Shown: positions 13,685 to 56,837, counted from the stretch's first letter. The stretch: 64,000 nt of DNA from Candidatus Gracilibacteria bacterium S5_H10 (GCA_019248075.1 JAEHHG010000001.1:9294-73293); one strand, 5' to 3'. The notes: a model not told the origin generated them from the letters alone. A program made the numbers and translations.

Positions 13685-13742
13685 GCACCAATAAAATACA
13701 ATATAAAAACACCTATCGAAATCCTTTCTCTCGTCTTGGCCT

Positions 13743-13869
13743 CATGCCGGTGTTATTGTTTGCAACCGGCATCCATACAAAAGTGCGTTAGTAGCATAGA
13801 TGTGGATTCCGGCTGCAATTTCTTAACGCCGGAATGATGTACATGTATGAGGATGCCGGAATGATGTCC
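13743..13869. repeat. cluster of GC-rich palindromic miniature repeats (family 1)
   Basis: catgccggt-N13-accggcat; tggattccggctgcaatttcttaacgccggaatgatgt; gatgccggaatgatgtcc. Near-identical copies occur at 42317 and 21358. Confidence 0.65.
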
Positions 13870-18641: not shown

Positions 18642-19988
18642 ATGTCACGAGTAGAAAATCTTCGCCCAAACAATATAGATAAAAAAACAACAAATCTGAA
18701 AAAATCTACCAGAGAGTCTTTATTCTGATTAAAAAAAGATATTTTATTCAATAACACACAACAACTAGAAACAGAAAACCTAAAAAAATCCACCAAAGAA
18801 TTATTATTCTGATTGAAAAAAGATATTTTATTCAATAGCAAAGAAACCATTTCTCTCGATATAGAAAAACAAAGAACATGATTTGGAACATATCTTAGAG
18901 AGCATGGTGTCGATAAGAATCTTTTCCCTAGAAAAAGCGGGATAGGAAAATTTCTCAGAACATTCAGATACTATGAAGATATCAAAACTATCTCTAAAAA
19001 AAATGATGTACCTTTCCGTTATTTTTTCTGACTTAAGATGATCGAAGGAGAAGGTGATCCTACCAACATCAATATCTCTGATGGAGGCGCATGAATATCA
19101 CAGATCCAACCAGATACGTTCAAGTGGTTTTCTTCTCAACATCTCAAAAAAAACTATAAAGTCTTTTACGATTCTCCAAAATATTCTGCATACAATTATG
19201 ATACGTTGATCAAGCAAGGGAAAAGCAGAAAAGAAGCAAATAAAATCATTGCAGACAAATTAGTACAAATAAGAAAAAACTATGGATATGATCTCAATAA
19301 GCTTATGAAACTGGATGATAGATTCAATCCCTCAATCGCTTTAGACTTTTCAGCTAAATATCTTCTTTTTTGCAAAAGCAAAGTGAATACAAAAACACTT
19401 ACTAATACATCACGAAACAAATATAAAAATGACCCTAAATATGATTTTGAATGGATGCTTGCGTTCAATGGGTATAACAAAGGACCAAAAAGCTTCGCAA
19501 AAAATTTTGAATGATCACACATTAGCAATCTCAAAAAAAGAATAGAACAATATGACCTTTATTCCAAAAGACTTACTGACTTATTGAAAGCAGGATACAG
19601 CTACGATGATATCATGACTAATATCACTATTGAAAATCCTCAACAACGGACAAAAAAAACCAAACAAAAGGAAATATCGTTTTTTAGCAAAGAAAAAAAA
19701 CACACTTCTTTTTCATCATTTGAACGTTTAATAAAAAATACAAATATTCCTCTTACCTATATTAACAATAGCAAAGATGGAAAACGAAAAGTTTATAAAT
19801 ATATCCTTCCTACCAATAATAATTTTTTTGCACCAAAAGATCTGATGCAGTTTTTTCGTATTTCAAAAATATTTTTATGAAAAACAATTCAGATTACTGA
19901 CGAAGATTGAGTGCCTTTGGCAAATCCCCTTAACTTTCCCAACAAAAAATGACAAGCTATCTATGTCAAAGAAAAAATAGCAAAATAA
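18642..19988 (+). CDS. lytic transglycosylase (SLT-domain) protein
   Basis: MIEGEGDP...GAGISQIQPDTF...NPSIALDFSAKYLLF...AFNGYNKGP matches the ES / GLMQI / AYNxG signature of SLT domains. Confidence 0.7.
18693..18838 (+). repeat. 84-bp tandem duplication inside the SLT gene
   Basis: NLKKSTRESLFGLKKDILFNN and NLKKSTKELLFGLKKDILFNS lie 28 codons apart. Confidence 0.7.
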
Positions 19989-20658: not shown

Positions 20659-20864
20659 ATTATACAAAAAAATAAATAAACCAGTTGAAATATATCTTTT
20701 TTTTTATAAATTACCAACAGATCGGTTTAGGTTAGTACGGATACGTCACAGAATATTCTGGTTGATCTACCAACACTAAAAAGGGAACCGTCATTCTGCA
20801 GGCATGACCTCCAGAAACAAAATCTGCTGATTTGAGCAGTACCCTCGCCGAGCGGGGGTTTTTT

Positions 20865-21716
20865 CTATTCTGCTATAACAAGTACTCATTTCTTTAACTG
20901 AATCAAACCTTCTTGCTGAAGACCTTTCACGATATTTTTCACTTCTTTGTGTGGGAATTCTTCTTGAACGTCTTGGACATGCAATGATCATTTTTTTACT
21001 AATTGTTTCATTATTCGTCAGCGGACTTGTCTATCAGAGCCTTCGAATTTTGATTGCTTAGATAATGATTTTATCTTGGTTTTTCTTGCGGTCAGCAATA
21101 ATGCTCATTGATCCATAAGTGCGTTGTGTCGATCACGAGACTTTCCTTTTGGAATGACTTTGAGTGCAAAAGCTTCAAGTTCTTTTGCTGTAATAGTTTC
21201 TGGTAGTTTGAACAAGAAAATCAAGACTCTCCTGATATTCGTATCGATCACCGGTACGGGTAAATTCCATGCAAATGCCATAATGGCTGCTGATGTGTAA
21301 GGGCCTATTCCTGGAAGCTTTTGTAGGGTATTTCTTAGTTGGTTGATCTGATTAGTGTGGATTCCGGCTCCAACACTTAACCCACGCAGTTCTGCGGGGC
21401 AGGCTGCCGGAATGACGTCGGAGACGATAGTTTTTGCACATTCTTGTAATCTTAGCACTCTCGAGTTGAATCATAATCCTGATCGATGACGGAGCAAATC
21501 TTGTTTTGAAGCATTCGCAAGTGATTGATAATCAGGAAAATCTTTCATTCGTTTATGAAAATAAGGAATCACCCTATCAACTTGTGTTTGCTGGAGCATT
21601 ACTTCAGAAATATGGATAGCATAAGGATTTTTTGTCTGCCTTCGAGGAAGTTTGCGGCCATTTTTTTCATATCAAGAAAGAATGCTTTGTTGTATTTTTT
21701 TGATATCTTGAGACAT
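20865..21716 (-). CDS. HhH-GPD base-excision glycosylase (MutY/Nth-like, without the Fe-S Cys cluster) with a C-terminal winged-helix-like extension
   Basis: PYAIHISEVMLQQTQV...LPGIGPYTSAAIMAFAWNLPVPVIDTNIRRVL...HNALMDQGALL. The UGA at 21105 is read through; ends at TAG 20865. Confidence 0.8.
21358..21420. repeat. family-1 palindromic repeat inserted in frame within the glycosylase CDS
   Basis: tggattccggct...ctgccggaatgacgtc has the same termini as the intergenic copies at 13803 and 42317. Its length is 63 nt (21 codons), encoding DVIPAACPAELRGLSVGAGIH. Confidence 0.6.
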
Positions 21717-22035: not shown

Positions 22036-24006
22036 TTATTCTCCTCTAGCCACCATTTTTATAAAGACATCACTAGGTACATTAACTGCTCCTATGGCTT
22101 TCATTTTCTTTTTTCCTTCTTTTTGTTTCGCTAATAATTTTCTTTTTCTGCTTACATCTCATCAATAACATTTTGCAAGGACGTCCTTTTTCATGGCAGA
22201 AATATTCTCTCTTGCAATCATTTTATTTCCAATTCCTGCTTGCAATGGAATAGCAAACATATGTTTTGGAATCAGTGTCTTTAATTTTTCTACTACTTCC
22301 TTTCCTAAATAATATGCTTTATCTCTATGAATAACTCGGCTCAAAGCCTCTACTTTTTCATTGTTGATATATACATCCAATTTTATCAAATCTGCTGGTT
22401 GATATTTTTTGAATTCATAATTCATCGTTGCATATCCCTTGGTCGATGATTTTAATCTATCATAAAAATCGATAATGATTTCTCCCATCGGCAATTCATA
22501 ATGCCAAACAACTCTTGTTTCATCGATATAATCCATATTGATAAGCTTACCTCTATATTCTTGACAAAGTGCCATAATATTTCCTGCATATTCTTGTGGT
22601 CAGACAACTTCTACTGCTGCAATAGGTTCTCGGATTTCATCTACCAATCATTGATCTATCATATCTGATCATGACTTCACTACTAACCAAGGAATAAGTT
22701 CTTCTTTTCTTTGAAGAGCTTCTTCATTAGTTGTATTCGATCCAAGGATCTGCTTATATAATCATGTTTTGAGTAATGTCGTGATATTTGATCAGGATTT
22801 AATTTGTTGTAAAGAAAAATTTTTGGATTTGATCAGATATATTACTGTCGGTATCGTAAAGATCGTTTCCATGTTATATTCTCTAGATAATCTTTCTTTG
22901 ACAATATCCATATGCAACATTCACAAAAATCCACAACGAAATCAGAAGCCAAGTGCTTTAGAATCTTCCAATTCATATTCAATTGCACTATCGTTGATAG
23001 ATAATTTTTCTAAGCTATCTTTGAGTTTATCATATTCCGTGGTATCGATAGGATATACTCCAGCATAGACAAATGGCTTTACTCTTTTGAATCATGGAAT
23101 AACAAAATCCTGCATCACAAGATCATTTTGTATTTTTCCTCTTTCATCTTTGATCATCGTATCTCAAATACTGATATCTCTTACCGATTTTTCTCCAGTA
23201 ACAATATATCAGATCTGTCATTCTTTAAGCATTTTGTCTGATTTATATTCTGGAGTGAAATATCCTACTTCGGTCGGAACTATATCATTTTCCGTATAGA
23301 TAAGATGAAGATTATCTCCTGCCTTTATTTCTCCATCGACTATTTTTACATATGCAAGCACTCATTTGTAGGGATCATATACTGAGTCAAAAATCAATGC
23401 TCTGGATAATCATGGTATCTGTGTTTTATCCTGTCCTACCGGCCAAAATTTTTTGCTATGAGATTTTTTGAAACTTTCTGGATCCTGAATTCTTTCTATG
23501 ATAGCATCCAATACTTTATCTACATTTTCTCATGTTTTCCCTGATACCTGAATGATCTCTGATTTATCTATTCCGATAATATTTTCTATCTCATGAGCGA
23601 CTCTTTCGGGATTTGCTGCAGGAAGATCTATTTTATTCAACACCGGAATAATAGTAAGATGTTGATCTATCGCTTGATAGAGTGTAGAAAGTGTCTGTGC
23701 TTGAATTCATTGACTTGCATCAACAAGCAAAATTGCTCACTCAGCTGCTGCAAGTGAACGAGAAACCTCATACTGAAAGTCTACGTGTCCTGGAGTATCT
23801 ATAAGATTAAATTCGTGATCTTTTCGTTGCATCCTGGCGGGCGTCAATTTTATTGTAATACCTCTTTCTTGTTCGATATCCATACGGTCGAGCATCTGTG
23901 CATGATCTATTTTTCTCACAGCTCATGTAATCTCTAGCATCCTATCTGCCAGTGTCGATTTCCCGTGATCTATATGTGCTATAATACAAAAGTTGCGTAT
24001 ATTCAT
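22036..24006 (-). CDS. lepA: elongation factor 4 (LepA)
   Basis: [20 protein letters not shown]...[18 protein letters not shown]...NKIDL...GFRCGFLGMLHM...; ends at TAA 22036. Confidence 0.95.
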
Positions 24007-24149
24007 ATCAAAAAACAACCCATGAAATGATAAAAGTGATGAAGCGATTGTATAAAATCACTTATTGAATTCAAGAAAGACTTTTGTATCTTTGACAAAA
24101 AAGCTATTTTTGAGTATCATTGTAGTATATTTATTTCTTTTGGAGTTCC

Positions 24150-42292: not shown

Positions 42293-42316
42293 TTTTGGTG
42301 TAAAGTAAAATTAGTA

Positions 42317-42353
42317 TGGATTCCGGCTGCATTTCCTTGGCGCCGGAATGAGG
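42317..42353. repeat. family-1 palindromic repeat
   Basis: tggattccggctgcatttccttggcgccggaatgagg is nearly identical to 13803..13840. Confidence 0.65.
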
Positions 42354-42363
42354 CCAAGACGAA

Positions 42364-42675
42364 TTAGTGGCATCATCCACAGCATCCGCCATCGTCTCCA
42401 CATCCTCAGTCACCACAGCACTGGTGACCTTCATGAGCAGAAATATCTTGTAAGATTTCTAGCATTTCATCTGGCTCTGGAGATCATCATGCAAGTACCA
42501 ACATATCATCGATAATCAATGCAGGCAAAGTCATAATATCGTATTCAGCGATTTCTTTTATATCTTCTATTTTTTCAATTTCGTATTCTAGCTCCAATGT
42601 TTTGGCAGCGTTTTCTACTGTTGTGTAGAGAAGTTTACATTTTGGGCATCATGTGCCCAGAATCTTTATAAGCAT
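42364..42675 (-). CDS. thioredoxin-fold small protein (redox-active disulfide protein 2-like) with a Cys/Gly-rich tail
   Basis: MLIKILGTGCPKCKLL...TLPALIIDD; the tail reads HQCCGDGGCGDDGGCCGGCH and includes UGA-as-Gly codons. Confidence 0.7.
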
Positions 42676-56716: not shown

Positions 56717-56837
56717 ACCATTCCAGCGTCATTCCGTTTCCTTTATTTTAACGTCATTCTCGCGAAAGCGGGAATCCATCTTGCTCTATAGCCCCAATTG
56801 GATTCCAGATCAGGTCGGGAATGACGTAATGTGGTTT
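56715..56837. mobile_element. MITE-like element, about 120 bp, with imperfect terminal inverted repeats (related to family 1)
   Basis: Left end ataaaccattccagcgtcattcc; the reverse complement of the right end is ataaaccacattacgtcattccc. An internal hairpin is acgtcattctcgcgaaagcgggaatcc. No ORF. Confidence 0.5.

What the first reader, a model, noticed from the sequence alone, without database searches (positions are those of the whole stretch)
21358..21420. Palindromic repeat inserted in frame inside the HhH-GPD glycosylase gene
This repeat has the same termini as the intergenic family-1 copies. It is 63 nt (21 codons) long and sits within the CDS. It adds DVIPAACPAELRGLSVGAGIH just upstream of the helix-hairpin-helix LPGIGPYT, where homologues have a short (G)G.(F/V)P linker. 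The reading frame is preserved. This mirrors the Rickettsia palindromic elements that colonise protein-coding genes without destroying them.
Basis: partly seen in the sequence, partly recalled or inferred. Interest (0 to 1): 0.7.

Follow-up and report, generated by a model that had tools for sequence, protein, structure and literature searches.

The report
Palindromic repeat inside a DNA-repair gene
A 63-base GC-rich hairpin repeat of a known, widespread class (CGTC-tagged REP) sits in frame inside an intact MutY-type DNA-repair gene of an uncultured SR1 bacterium, adding a 21-residue floppy loop; this is a new example of a known kind of selfish DNA that genes tolerate.

Summary
They are 62% GC in a 37% GC gene.

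A model built from 58 intergenic copies matches 21351-21421 at 51.8 bits (E 3e-10). Three strong and two weak copies lie elsewhere in the window.

The genome uses code 25 (TGA = Gly), so it is an Absconditabacteria/SR1 genome. The host gene, 20865-21716 (-), is an intact clusterless MutYX-type adenine glycosylase. It keeps every family-invariant residue.

Positional orthologues of the basic form have no insert here. No orthologue from another organism shares this sequence.

In the AlphaFold model the insert is a low-confidence loop between two confident helices, just before the helix-hairpin-helix motif.

On the gene strand the element reads CGTC-ATTCCGGC...GCCGGAAT-CCA. That is the published CGTC-tagged REP class, which includes Neisseria dRS3 and Rickettsia RPE-4 and RPE-6 and is known to occur inside repair genes. 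Its loop is much longer than the published 4-5 nt.

The same loop is an indel hot spot: about half of 114 homologues carry other inserts there, including heptanucleotide arrays and a GTAG-tagged hairpin.

Verdict: real and correctly read, and a new member of a known kind.

The parts
21351..21421 (+). Full repeat element as delimited by the family covariance model. The model's orientation is the + strand; the host gene is on the - strand.
   Evidence: Model R1 matches over its full length (positions 1-47) at 51.8 bits, E 3.2e-10. It aligns with the long-form copies L155, L167 and L161.
21357..21419 (-). The 21 in-frame codons D100-H120 (DVIPAACPAELRGLSVGAGIH) that the element contributes to the glycosylase.
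   Evidence: Coordinates and translation. Absent from basic-form orthologues. pLDDT is about 51-53 and falls below 50 at residues 112-116.
21361..21368 (+). Left arm of the outer stem, ATTCCGGC. It is preceded by TGG at 21358-21360, which is the CCA tail on the gene strand.
   Evidence: Across 101 distinct copies the stem is 98.7% paired, and 3 of its 8 pairs show compensatory changes.
21381..21399 (+). Inner hairpin CCCACGCAGTTCTGCGGGG, found only in long-form copies. GCAGGCT follows it.
   Evidence: RNA and DNA folds. L155, L167 and L161 have the same architecture with different, self-complementary inner sequences.
21406..21417 (+). Right arm GCCGGAAT (21406-21413) followed by GACG (21414-21417), which is the CGTC tag on the gene strand.
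   Evidence: The tag is defined in PMC3733652.
20865..21716 (-). Host gene: a clusterless MutYX-type adenine DNA glycosylase of 283 aa under code 25. It is intact.
   Evidence: Pfam HhH-GPD, E 6.6e-16. Best PDB sequence hit 8uuc_A, E 9e-32. Foldseek best match 8uuc_A, TM 0.71. All invariant columns are retained. Synteny LepA - glycosylase - rsmI is conserved.
13736..13843 (.). Intergenic inverted dimer of the same family: 13736-13782 (-), a compensated-stem variant ATGCCGGT/ACCGGCAT, and 13796-13843 (+). A partial right end follows at 13853-13868. The dimer lies between the map and ruvC genes.
   Evidence: 58.2 and 60.3 bits. Sequence.
42310..42357 (+). Intergenic single copy, about 10 nt downstream of the stop codon of the thioredoxin-like gene 42364-42675 (-).
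   Evidence: 58.8 bits. Sequence. Gene positions.
56748..56830 (.). Diverged inverted dimer between convergent genes. It includes CGTCATTCTCGC-GAAA-GCGGGAATCCA, the canonical form with a 4-nt loop.
   Evidence: 18.8 and 17.2 bits, E 0.014 and 0.036. Sequence.

Best explanation
The segment is one copy of a dispersed, non-coding, hairpin-forming repeat of the CGTC-tagged REP class. On the gene strand it reads CGTC + ATTCCGGC ... GCCGGAAT + CCA. This copy is the long-loop form with a nested inner hairpin.

It landed inside the coding sequence of a MutYX-type adenine glycosylase, in the surface linker between the helix ending at residue 99 and the helix that leads into the helix-hairpin-helix motif.

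The insertion survived for three reasons. Its length is a multiple of three. The GC-rich element has no TAA or TAG in that frame, and TGA is Gly in this organism. That linker also tolerates extra residues, because about half of the SR1 orthologues carry some other insert there.

The result is a 21-residue, probably disordered loop on an otherwise intact and probably functional repair enzyme. The insertion is most likely neutral or nearly so.

Shown: family membership, absence from orthologues, an intact gene, and a low-confidence loop in the model.

Inferred: the insertion event and its mechanism (no transposase is known for CGTC REPs), retained enzyme activity, and neutrality.
For: Family membership:
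- The covariance model matches at 51.8 bits, E 3e-10.
- The termini are shared with window copies A and B.
- The architecture matches the long-form copies L155, L167 and L161 from SR1-like metagenome contigs.
- There are 103 model matches in 443 kb of SR1-like DNA. The stem is 98.7% paired, 3 of 8 pairs show compensatory changes, and no shuffle out of 500 reached the observed covariation score.

Class:
- The CGTC tag, the 8-bp stem beginning with AT and the CCA tail match the published definition. dRS3, RPE-4 and RPE-6 belong to the same class, and intragenic copies are reported mainly in replication and repair genes (PMC3733652).

Insertion:
- GC content is 62% against 36.6% for the rest of the gene.
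- The positional orthologue L243 (P0015) and 48 other homologues have the 20-residue basic linker.
- Only P0001 shares the insert. It is the same protein read with TGA = Trp, from a contig 99.96% identical to the window.

Intact gene:
- One Pfam HhH-GPD match spans residues 36-189.
- All 70-odd invariant columns are retained, including E38, D158, the HhH residues and the 8-oxoG-recognition pair Q221/R229 (PMC12631127).

Loop:
- In the AlphaFold model residues 100-120 have pLDDT of about 51-53, between helices 84-99 and 121-132 with block means of 83-89.

Tolerance of the site:
- The region after residue 101 is the dominant indel site of the family. The linker is 25-55 residues long in about 52 of 108 measured homologues.
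Against: - No empty-site allele of this same species was found, so the insertion is inferred from orthologues no closer than 76% identical.
- The closest relatives carry other inserts at the same place. The element could therefore have replaced an older insert rather than entered a basic-form gene.
- Expression and activity of the protein are untested.
- The published CGTC class has loops of 4-5 nt. This copy has 37 nt between its arms.
- The fold energy of the 91-nt context is only modestly better than shuffles (z -1.96 as RNA, z -2.47 as DNA), as expected for a GC-rich segment.
- Read support could not be checked.
Confidence: 0.8

Rival explanations
1. The insertion has a function. The REP, or its peptide or mRNA hairpin, changes the activity or expression of the repair enzyme, for example by lowering MutYX output and raising the mutation rate. 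The loop would then be a selected variation site rather than merely a tolerant one.
For: - Published intragenic REPs are concentrated in replication and repair genes. They are often the only REP-tagged coding sequence in a species, and the authors speculate about mutator effects (PMC3733652).
- This is the only convincing intragenic copy among about 100 surveyed.
- The same loop carries a GTAG-tagged hairpin in L244 and heptanucleotide arrays in L241, L242 and L245.
- The mRNA hairpin is predicted at -27.8 kcal/mol.
Against: - Nothing here measures activity or expression.
- A tolerant surface loop combined with a steady supply of insertions explains the same pattern.
- All catalytic and recognition residues are intact.
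- No frameshifted alleles were seen. Length differences within 90% clusters were 2-4 residues, and the short members are probably gene calls cut at TGA.
Confidence: 0.1
2. The gene is a pseudogene, or is becoming one. The insert is tolerated because the gene no longer matters.
For: SR1 genomes are reduced and often lose repair genes (general knowledge). The insert lies next to the DNA-binding HhH motif.
Against: - The 283-codon frame is open under code 25.
- Every invariant residue of 56 aligned homologues is retained.
- The model is confident outside the insert, with mean pLDDT 81.
- Gene order is conserved.
- Many orthologues with other inserts in this loop are equally intact.
Confidence: 0.05
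3. The segment arose locally, by loop expansion, slippage or convergence, and is not a copy of a dispersed element.
For: Other orthologues expanded this loop with local heptanucleotide tandem arrays.
Against: - GC content is 62% in a 37% GC gene.
- The termini are 11 and 13 nt and identical to dispersed copies. The interior prefix CAACACTTAAC is shared with copies in other genomes.
- The model match has E 3e-10.
- No tandem structure is present.
Confidence: 0.03
4. The segment is an assembly or binning artefact that joined repeat-containing reads into the gene.
For: Short repeats can cause misjoins in metagenome assemblies, and read support could not be inspected.
Against: - The same sequence occurs in an NCBI assembly (GCA_014155695.1, contig JAAEKB010000351.1) that is 99.96% identical over 4577 nt.
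- The collection records the protein on two contigs.
- A misjoin that preserved the frame and both flanks of a conserved gene is unlikely.
Confidence: 0.02

Closest known systems
CGTC-tagged REPs (Di Nocera, De Gregorio and Rocco 2013, BMC Genomics 14:522; PMC3733652)
   Same: - A CGTC tetranucleotide at one end.
- An 8-bp stem that begins with A-T pairs.
- A 3-nt CCA tail at the other end.
- Many copies, mostly extragenic and often just downstream of genes.
- Inverted dimers are common.
- Occasional intragenic copies, notably in DNA repair genes.
   Different: - Published loops are 4-5 nt. The SR1 family has 14-15 nt, or 37 nt with a nested hairpin as in this copy. Only the weak copy at 56748-56785 has a 4-nt loop.
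- The class was described in five phyla, none of them in the Candidate Phyla Radiation (the group of ultra-small uncultured bacteria to which SR1 belongs).
- MutY-type genes are not named among the targets in the passages read.
Rickettsia palindromic elements (RPE), especially RPE-4 and RPE-6
   Same: They are palindromic repeats found in frame inside housekeeping genes without destroying them. RPE-4 and RPE-6 were assigned to the CGTC class.
   Different: - RPE-1 type elements are about 100-150 bp.
- Nearly half of R. conorii RPEs from three families lie inside ORFs (PMC10969869). Here I found 1 intragenic copy in about 100.
- The host phylum and genetic code differ.
Neisseria dRS3 / NIME repeats
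   Same: The terminal inverted repeat is ATTCC...GGAAT, flanked by the tag and the tail. dRS3 is classed as CGTC-1. A variant ATTCCCGC/GCGGGAAT coexists in SR1-like contigs, in 21 of 101 distinct copies.
   Different: - dRS3 is a 20-bp unit, ATTCCC-N8-GGGAAT, arranged in large arrays with RS spacers.
- It serves as an integration site for filamentous prophages.
- No arrays or prophage links were seen here.
GTAG-tagged REPs / REPINs mobilised by RAYT transposases
   Same: They are short GC-rich extragenic palindromes, often in inverted dimers, and can occur inside genes. A GTAG-tagged hairpin occupies the same loop in orthologue L244.
   Different: The window element has a CGTC tag, not GTAG. 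The literature reports no dedicated transposase for CGTC REPs, and I did not search for one here.
Clusterless MutYX adenine glycosylase (PDB 8UUC; PMC12631127)
   Same: - The host protein lacks the four Cys ligands of the iron-sulfur cluster.
- It has the X-type C-terminal domain with the Gln/Arg 8-oxoG recognition pair (Q221, R229).
- It keeps the catalytic Glu and Asp.
   Different: It has 21 extra residues before the HhH motif. Sequence identity to 8UUC is only about 30%.

Membership tests
CGTC-tagged REP | CGTC (or TGTC/CCTC) tetranucleotide at one end of the palindrome | tested here: met
   The gene strand reads GA-CGTC-ATTCCGGC; on the + strand this is GACG at 21414-21417. Copy B has the CCTC variant. 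In the genome scan the unspecified base after GAATGA was C in 117 of 124 matches.
CGTC-tagged REP | Stem of 8-9 bp whose first two pairs are A-T | tested here: met
   ATTCCGGC/GCCGGAAT is 8 bp. It is 98.7% paired over 101 distinct copies, with compensatory changes at 3 pairs.
CGTC-tagged REP | Unpaired 3-nt tail close to CCA at the untagged end | tested here: met
   GGAAT-CCA on the gene strand; TGG at 21358-21360 on the + strand. TGG is invariant in alignment A3.
CGTC-tagged REP | Loop of 4-5 nt | tested here: not met
   There are 37 nt between the arms in this copy and 14-15 nt in short SR1 copies. Only 56748-56785 has a 4-nt GAAA loop. I therefore treat this as a long-loop variant of the class.
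CGTC-tagged REP | Multi-copy, mainly extragenic, frequently in inverted dimers | tested here: met
   There are 103 matches in 443 kb, with more than 25 adjacent (-)(+) pairs whose tail ends face each other. Nearly all are intergenic. Whether this orientation is what the paper calls 'HH' was not established.
CGTC-tagged REP | No dedicated transposase next to the repeats | not tested
   The proteins of the window and the loci were not screened for HUH/Y1 or other transposases.
Rickettsia palindromic elements (RPE) | Repeat family of Rickettsia genomes, about 100-150 bp for the classic RPE-1 type | tested here: not met
   The host is an SR1 bacterium using code 25. The element is 63-71 nt.
Rickettsia palindromic elements (RPE) | Frequent in-frame insertion into unrelated ORFs | tested here: not met
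   There is one in-frame copy, this one. No other convincing intragenic copy was found among about 100, judging the spanning ORFs by eye.
Rickettsia palindromic elements (RPE) | Inserted peptide lies on the protein surface and is compatible with the fold | tested here: inconclusive
   AlphaFold places residues 100-120 as a low-confidence loop between confident helices.
MITE | Terminal inverted repeats plus a target-site duplication | tested here: not met
   No direct repeat flanks the element (GATTAGTG ... TCGGAGAC). The conserved 5' flank TTAGTA has no matching 3' copy in alignment A3.
GTAG REP / REPIN-RAYT | GTAG tetranucleotide head and a cognate RAYT gene | tested here: not met
   There is no GTAG at either end of this element. 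I did not search for a RAYT.
MutYX (clusterless MutY) | HhH-GPD catalytic domain without the Cys-X6-Cys-X2-Cys-X5-Cys cluster motif | tested here: met
   Pfam HhH-GPD. There is no Cys in ...HNALMDQGALLLTARKTKIK.... The best sequence and fold match is 8uuc_A.
MutYX (clusterless MutY) | 8-oxoG recognition Gln and Arg in the C-terminal X domain; catalytic Glu and Asp | tested here: met
   QSKFEGSDRQ aligns with QSTFEGSRRQ of 8uuc. Q221, R229, E38 and D158 are invariant in 56 homologues. The residues are defined in PMC12631127.
MutYX (clusterless MutY) | Adenine glycosylase activity on OG:A | not testable with these tools
   This needs a biochemical assay.

The most novel reading that the evidence does not exclude
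The linker before the helix-hairpin-helix motif of SR1 MutYX genes may be a contingency site. REP hairpins of two classes and heptanucleotide tandem arrays, whose unit length is not a multiple of three, would repeatedly enter, expand and contract there. That would switch or tune the anti-mutator enzyme and give these tiny-genome bacteria a heritable, reversible mutator state.
Probability: 0.06. Interest if true: 0.8.

Novelty: new member of a known kind. Interest (0 to 1): 0.4.

Why it matters
- It extends the CGTC-tagged REP class to the Candidate Phyla Radiation and to a genome that reads TGA as glycine. In such a genome a GC-rich repeat has even fewer stop codons, so it enters genes in frame more easily.
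- It adds a base-excision repair glycosylase to the published list of replication and repair genes that carry REPs.
- It shows that one particular surface linker of the MutYX fold accepts 5-35 extra residues of very different sequence. That is useful for protein engineering and for aligning these enzymes.
- The scans also suggest that the CGTC outer stem, enclosing lineage-specific inner hairpins, occurs in many more phyla than the five described. That raises the question of what keeps it constant.

Tried and rejected
- **Genome-contig scan:** It did not return the source genome, and only L025 was from Absconditabacterales. I first took the hits for chance matches. They proved to be real relatives, because the unspecified flanking bases are conserved.
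- **Rfam:** A permissive-threshold search of eight loci that carry the element gave only chance microRNA hits.
- **Literature string searches:** Searches for the stem sequence and for peptides such as VIPAKAGIQ found nothing relevant.
- **Other in-frame copies:** Every spanning ORF among the metagenome copies looked spurious, or the real gene started after the element.
- **Shared neighbouring protein:** The recurrent 'protein clusters' next to the 48-nt form were translations of the repeat itself.
- **L244 hairpin:** I looked for other copies of GGGCGAAT...ATTCGCC in the loci held and found none. Its status as a dispersed repeat rests only on its GTAG tag and palindrome.
- **Gene tree:** The neighbour-joining tree of orthologues was too poorly resolved to order the gains and losses of insert types.
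- **Heptamer slippage:** Cluster members showed no tract-length series that would indicate slippage.
- **Structure prediction:** I used P0001 instead, which is the same protein with six Gly positions read as Trp.

Full report
**1. The observation**

The window is AT-rich, about 32% GC. Under the standard bacterial code its genes are broken at TGA. If only TAA and TAG are treated as stops, long ORFs appear.

In LepA (22036-24120, minus strand), 13 of 17 aligned TGA positions face glycine of T. thermophilus EF4, and none faces tryptophan. The genome therefore uses code 25. Sources name the best homologues 'candidate division SR1' or Absconditabacterales.

Read this way, 20865-21716 (-) is a 283-codon gene. 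The segment is 62% GC against 36.6% for the rest of the gene.

**2. It is a copy of a dispersed repeat**

The termini TGGATTCCGGCTsCA ... GCCGGAATGA recur at 13804-13842 and 42318-42353. ATTCCGGC occurs 9 times against 0.66 expected.

From 58 non-redundant short copies in AT-rich contigs I built a covariance model. On the window with filters off it finds:

- 13796-13843 (+), 60 bits
- 42310-42357 (+), 59 bits
- 13736-13782 (-), 58 bits; a variant with compensated stem changes, ATGCCGGT/ACCGGCAT
- 21361-21418 (+), 32.8 bits, E 3.6e-6, with a 25-nt insertion in the loop
- a weak diverged dimer at 56748-56830

With default filters the copy in the gene scores 51.8 bits (E 3.2e-10) over 21351-21421.

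The extra 25 nt are not peculiar to this copy. L155, L167 and L161 from SR1-like contigs have the same prefix (...CAAyrCTTAAC), then a self-complementary inner hairpin of different sequence, then a short linker and the right arm.

Over 101 distinct copies the 8-bp stem is 98.7% paired, and three pairs show compensatory double changes. No shuffle out of 500 reached the observed covariation score.

**3. It is an insertion relative to orthologues**

The protein has 7413 homologues at E ≤ 1e-10. I fetched five orthologues (L241-L245). All lie in the same gene order, LepA - (DUF1294) - glycosylase - rsmI, so they are positional orthologues.

- Between the conserved 'RLQxCA' and 'LPGIGPY', 49 of 108 measured homologues have 20 residues. 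The window protein has 39.
- L243 (P0015) reads ...LVTTYNSQVPKDRIELQKLPGIGPY with no insert.
- Solved MutYX and MutY structures also have a short GG-x-(L/V)-P linker there.
- Only P0001 carries the same 21 residues. It is the same protein translated with TGA = Trp, from an NCBI contig 99.96% identical to the window.

No independent lineage shares the segment.

**4. The host gene is intact**

- Pfam HhH-GPD matches as one stretch, residues 36-189.
- The best sequence and fold match is 8UUC, the clusterless 'MutYX' of Eggerthella.
- The protein has no cluster cysteines.
- It keeps the catalytic Glu38 and Asp158, the HhH residues, and Q221/R229. The last two correspond to the 8-oxoG-recognition Gln201/Arg209 of MutYX.
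- The window protein shares all 70-odd invariant columns of a 56-sequence alignment.
- The AlphaFold model has mean pLDDT 81. Helices 84-99 and 121-132 are confident. Residues 100-120 score about 51-53, below 50 at 112-116, with almost no secondary structure. This is a floppy loop just upstream of the HhH motif.

I could not obtain coordinates to measure the distance from this loop to the DNA.

**5. What class of element it is**

On the gene strand the element reads GA-CGTC-ATTCCGGC ... GCCGGAAT-CCA-CACTAA. Di Nocera et al. (PMC3733652) define CGTC-tagged REPs by four features:

- a CGTC (or TGTC/CCTC) tag
- an 8-9 bp stem whose first pairs are A-T
- a 4-5 nt loop
- a CCA-like tail

Three of the four are met. 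The loop is much longer here.

The same paper assigns Neisseria dRS3 (ATTCCC-N8-GGGAAT) and R. conorii RPE-6 and RPE-4 to this class. It reports no dedicated transposase. It finds that intragenic REPs lie mostly in replication and repair genes, often as the only REP-tagged coding sequence of a species.

The window case fits that pattern. Among about 100 further copies in SR1-like contigs, I found none convincingly inside a real gene. Many sit 4-17 nt after a stop codon. More than 25 form adjacent inverted dimers with their tail ends facing each other.

**6. The loop is a hot spot**

The region after residue 101 is by far the main indel site of the family. About half of the homologues carry 5-35 extra residues there, of several unrelated kinds. 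At the DNA level:

- L245 has heptanucleotide arrays: AATTGAA x4.9 and TTAAAAA x4.3.
- L242 has TTTCAAA x5.3.
- L241 has AAATTTC x2.7.
- L244 has GTAG-GGGCGAAT-ACC-ATTCGCC, read as VGANTIRL. This has the form of a GTAG-tagged REP. The peptide recurs in about eight homologues.

A neighbour-joining tree did not resolve the order of these events. The simplest reading is a structurally tolerant linker that filters a steady supply of insertions and slippage products. A selected role in tuning a mutation-avoidance enzyme is not excluded, but nothing here supports it directly.

**7. A wider distribution**

The genome scan specified only GGATTCCGGC ... GCCGGAATGA. The base before the match was T in 116 of 124 matches and the base after was C in 117 of 124. 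These are therefore relatives, not chance hits. They come from:

- Dehalococcoidia
- Desulfobacterota
- Alpha- and Betaproteobacteria
- Planctomycetota
- Omnitrophota
- Nomurabacteria
- other groups

Each has its own inner hairpin. A GGGrCAGGCT motif before the right arm is shared by this copy and several of them. Rfam has no matching family.

**8. Verdict**

The element belongs to a described class, and intragenic REPs in repair genes are a described phenomenon. This is therefore a new member of a known kind.

It has three features worth noting: a new phylum and genetic code, a new target gene, and an insertion-prone loop shared by two REP classes and by heptamer arrays.

Noticed in passing
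whole window; e.g. LepA 22036-24120 (-): The genome reads TGA as glycine (code 25). 13 of 17 aligned TGA codons in LepA face Gly of EF4 and none faces Trp. Public protein sets translate many of these genes with TGA = Trp or cut them at TGA.
   Followed up: yes
L244 6302-6330 (orthologous glycosylase of GCA_026397475.1): A different GC-rich hairpin, GTAG-GGGCGAAT-ACC-ATTCGCC (peptide VGANTIRL), lies in frame at the same loop. It has the form of a GTAG-tagged REP. About eight homologues share the peptide. No other copy was found in the loci held.
   Followed up: partly
L245 6285-6355; L242 6301-6337; L241 3792-3810: Orthologues carry heptanucleotide tandem arrays (AATTGAA, TTAAAAA, TTTCAAA, AAATTTC; 2.7-5.3 copies) inside the same loop-coding region. 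The unit length is not a multiple of three, so a change of one unit would shift the frame of a mutation-avoidance gene.
   Followed up: partly
L001-L119 (genome scan) and L121-L240 (metagenome scan): The outer stem with its tag and tail (T-GGATTCCGGC ... GCCGGAATGA-C) occurs in contigs of 29-73% GC from many phyla. It encloses lineage-specific inner hairpins, for example a 48-nt form with a covarying CCCGCA/TGCGGG stem. The published CGTC class covered only five phyla and 4-5 nt loops.
   Followed up: partly
window 13736-13868: A REP cluster lies between the map and ruvC genes: an inverted dimer whose left member has both stem changes compensated (ATGCCGGT/ACCGGCAT), plus a third, partial right end. 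L147 holds the homologous dimer from a related organism.
   Followed up: yes
window 56720-56830: A diverged inverted dimer lies between convergent genes. One member has the canonical 4-nt loop (CGTCATTCTCGC-GAAA-GCGGGAATCCA), like dRS3. A further fragment, GCGTCATTCC, lies just upstream.
   Followed up: partly
L245 6880-6950: In a relative, a REP dimer of the ATTCCCGC-GAAA-GCGGGAAT type sits about 35 nt downstream of the orthologous glycosylase gene. The neighbourhood of this gene therefore attracts the family in more than one lineage.
   Followed up: no
window 20821-20862: Two adjacent GC-rich hairpins (CTGCTGATTTGAGCAG and CCCTCGCCGAGCGGGGG, followed by a T run) lie between the glycosylase stop codon and rsmI. 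They look like a terminator and do not belong to the CGTC family.
   Followed up: no
window 18685-18845: A tandem direct repeat of 77 nt (two copies, 83% identical, 84 nt apart) lies inside the ORF 18642-19988 (+). That ORF corresponds to the SLT-domain gene of the orthologous loci.
   Followed up: no
L242 6956-7243: A small free-standing GIY-YIG ORF is inserted between the glycosylase and rsmI in one relative. It is absent from the window and from L243-L245.
   Followed up: no
L233 8906-9102: Three copies of the family lie in the same orientation within 200 nt, as a small cluster. This is unlike the usual inverted dimers.
   Followed up: no
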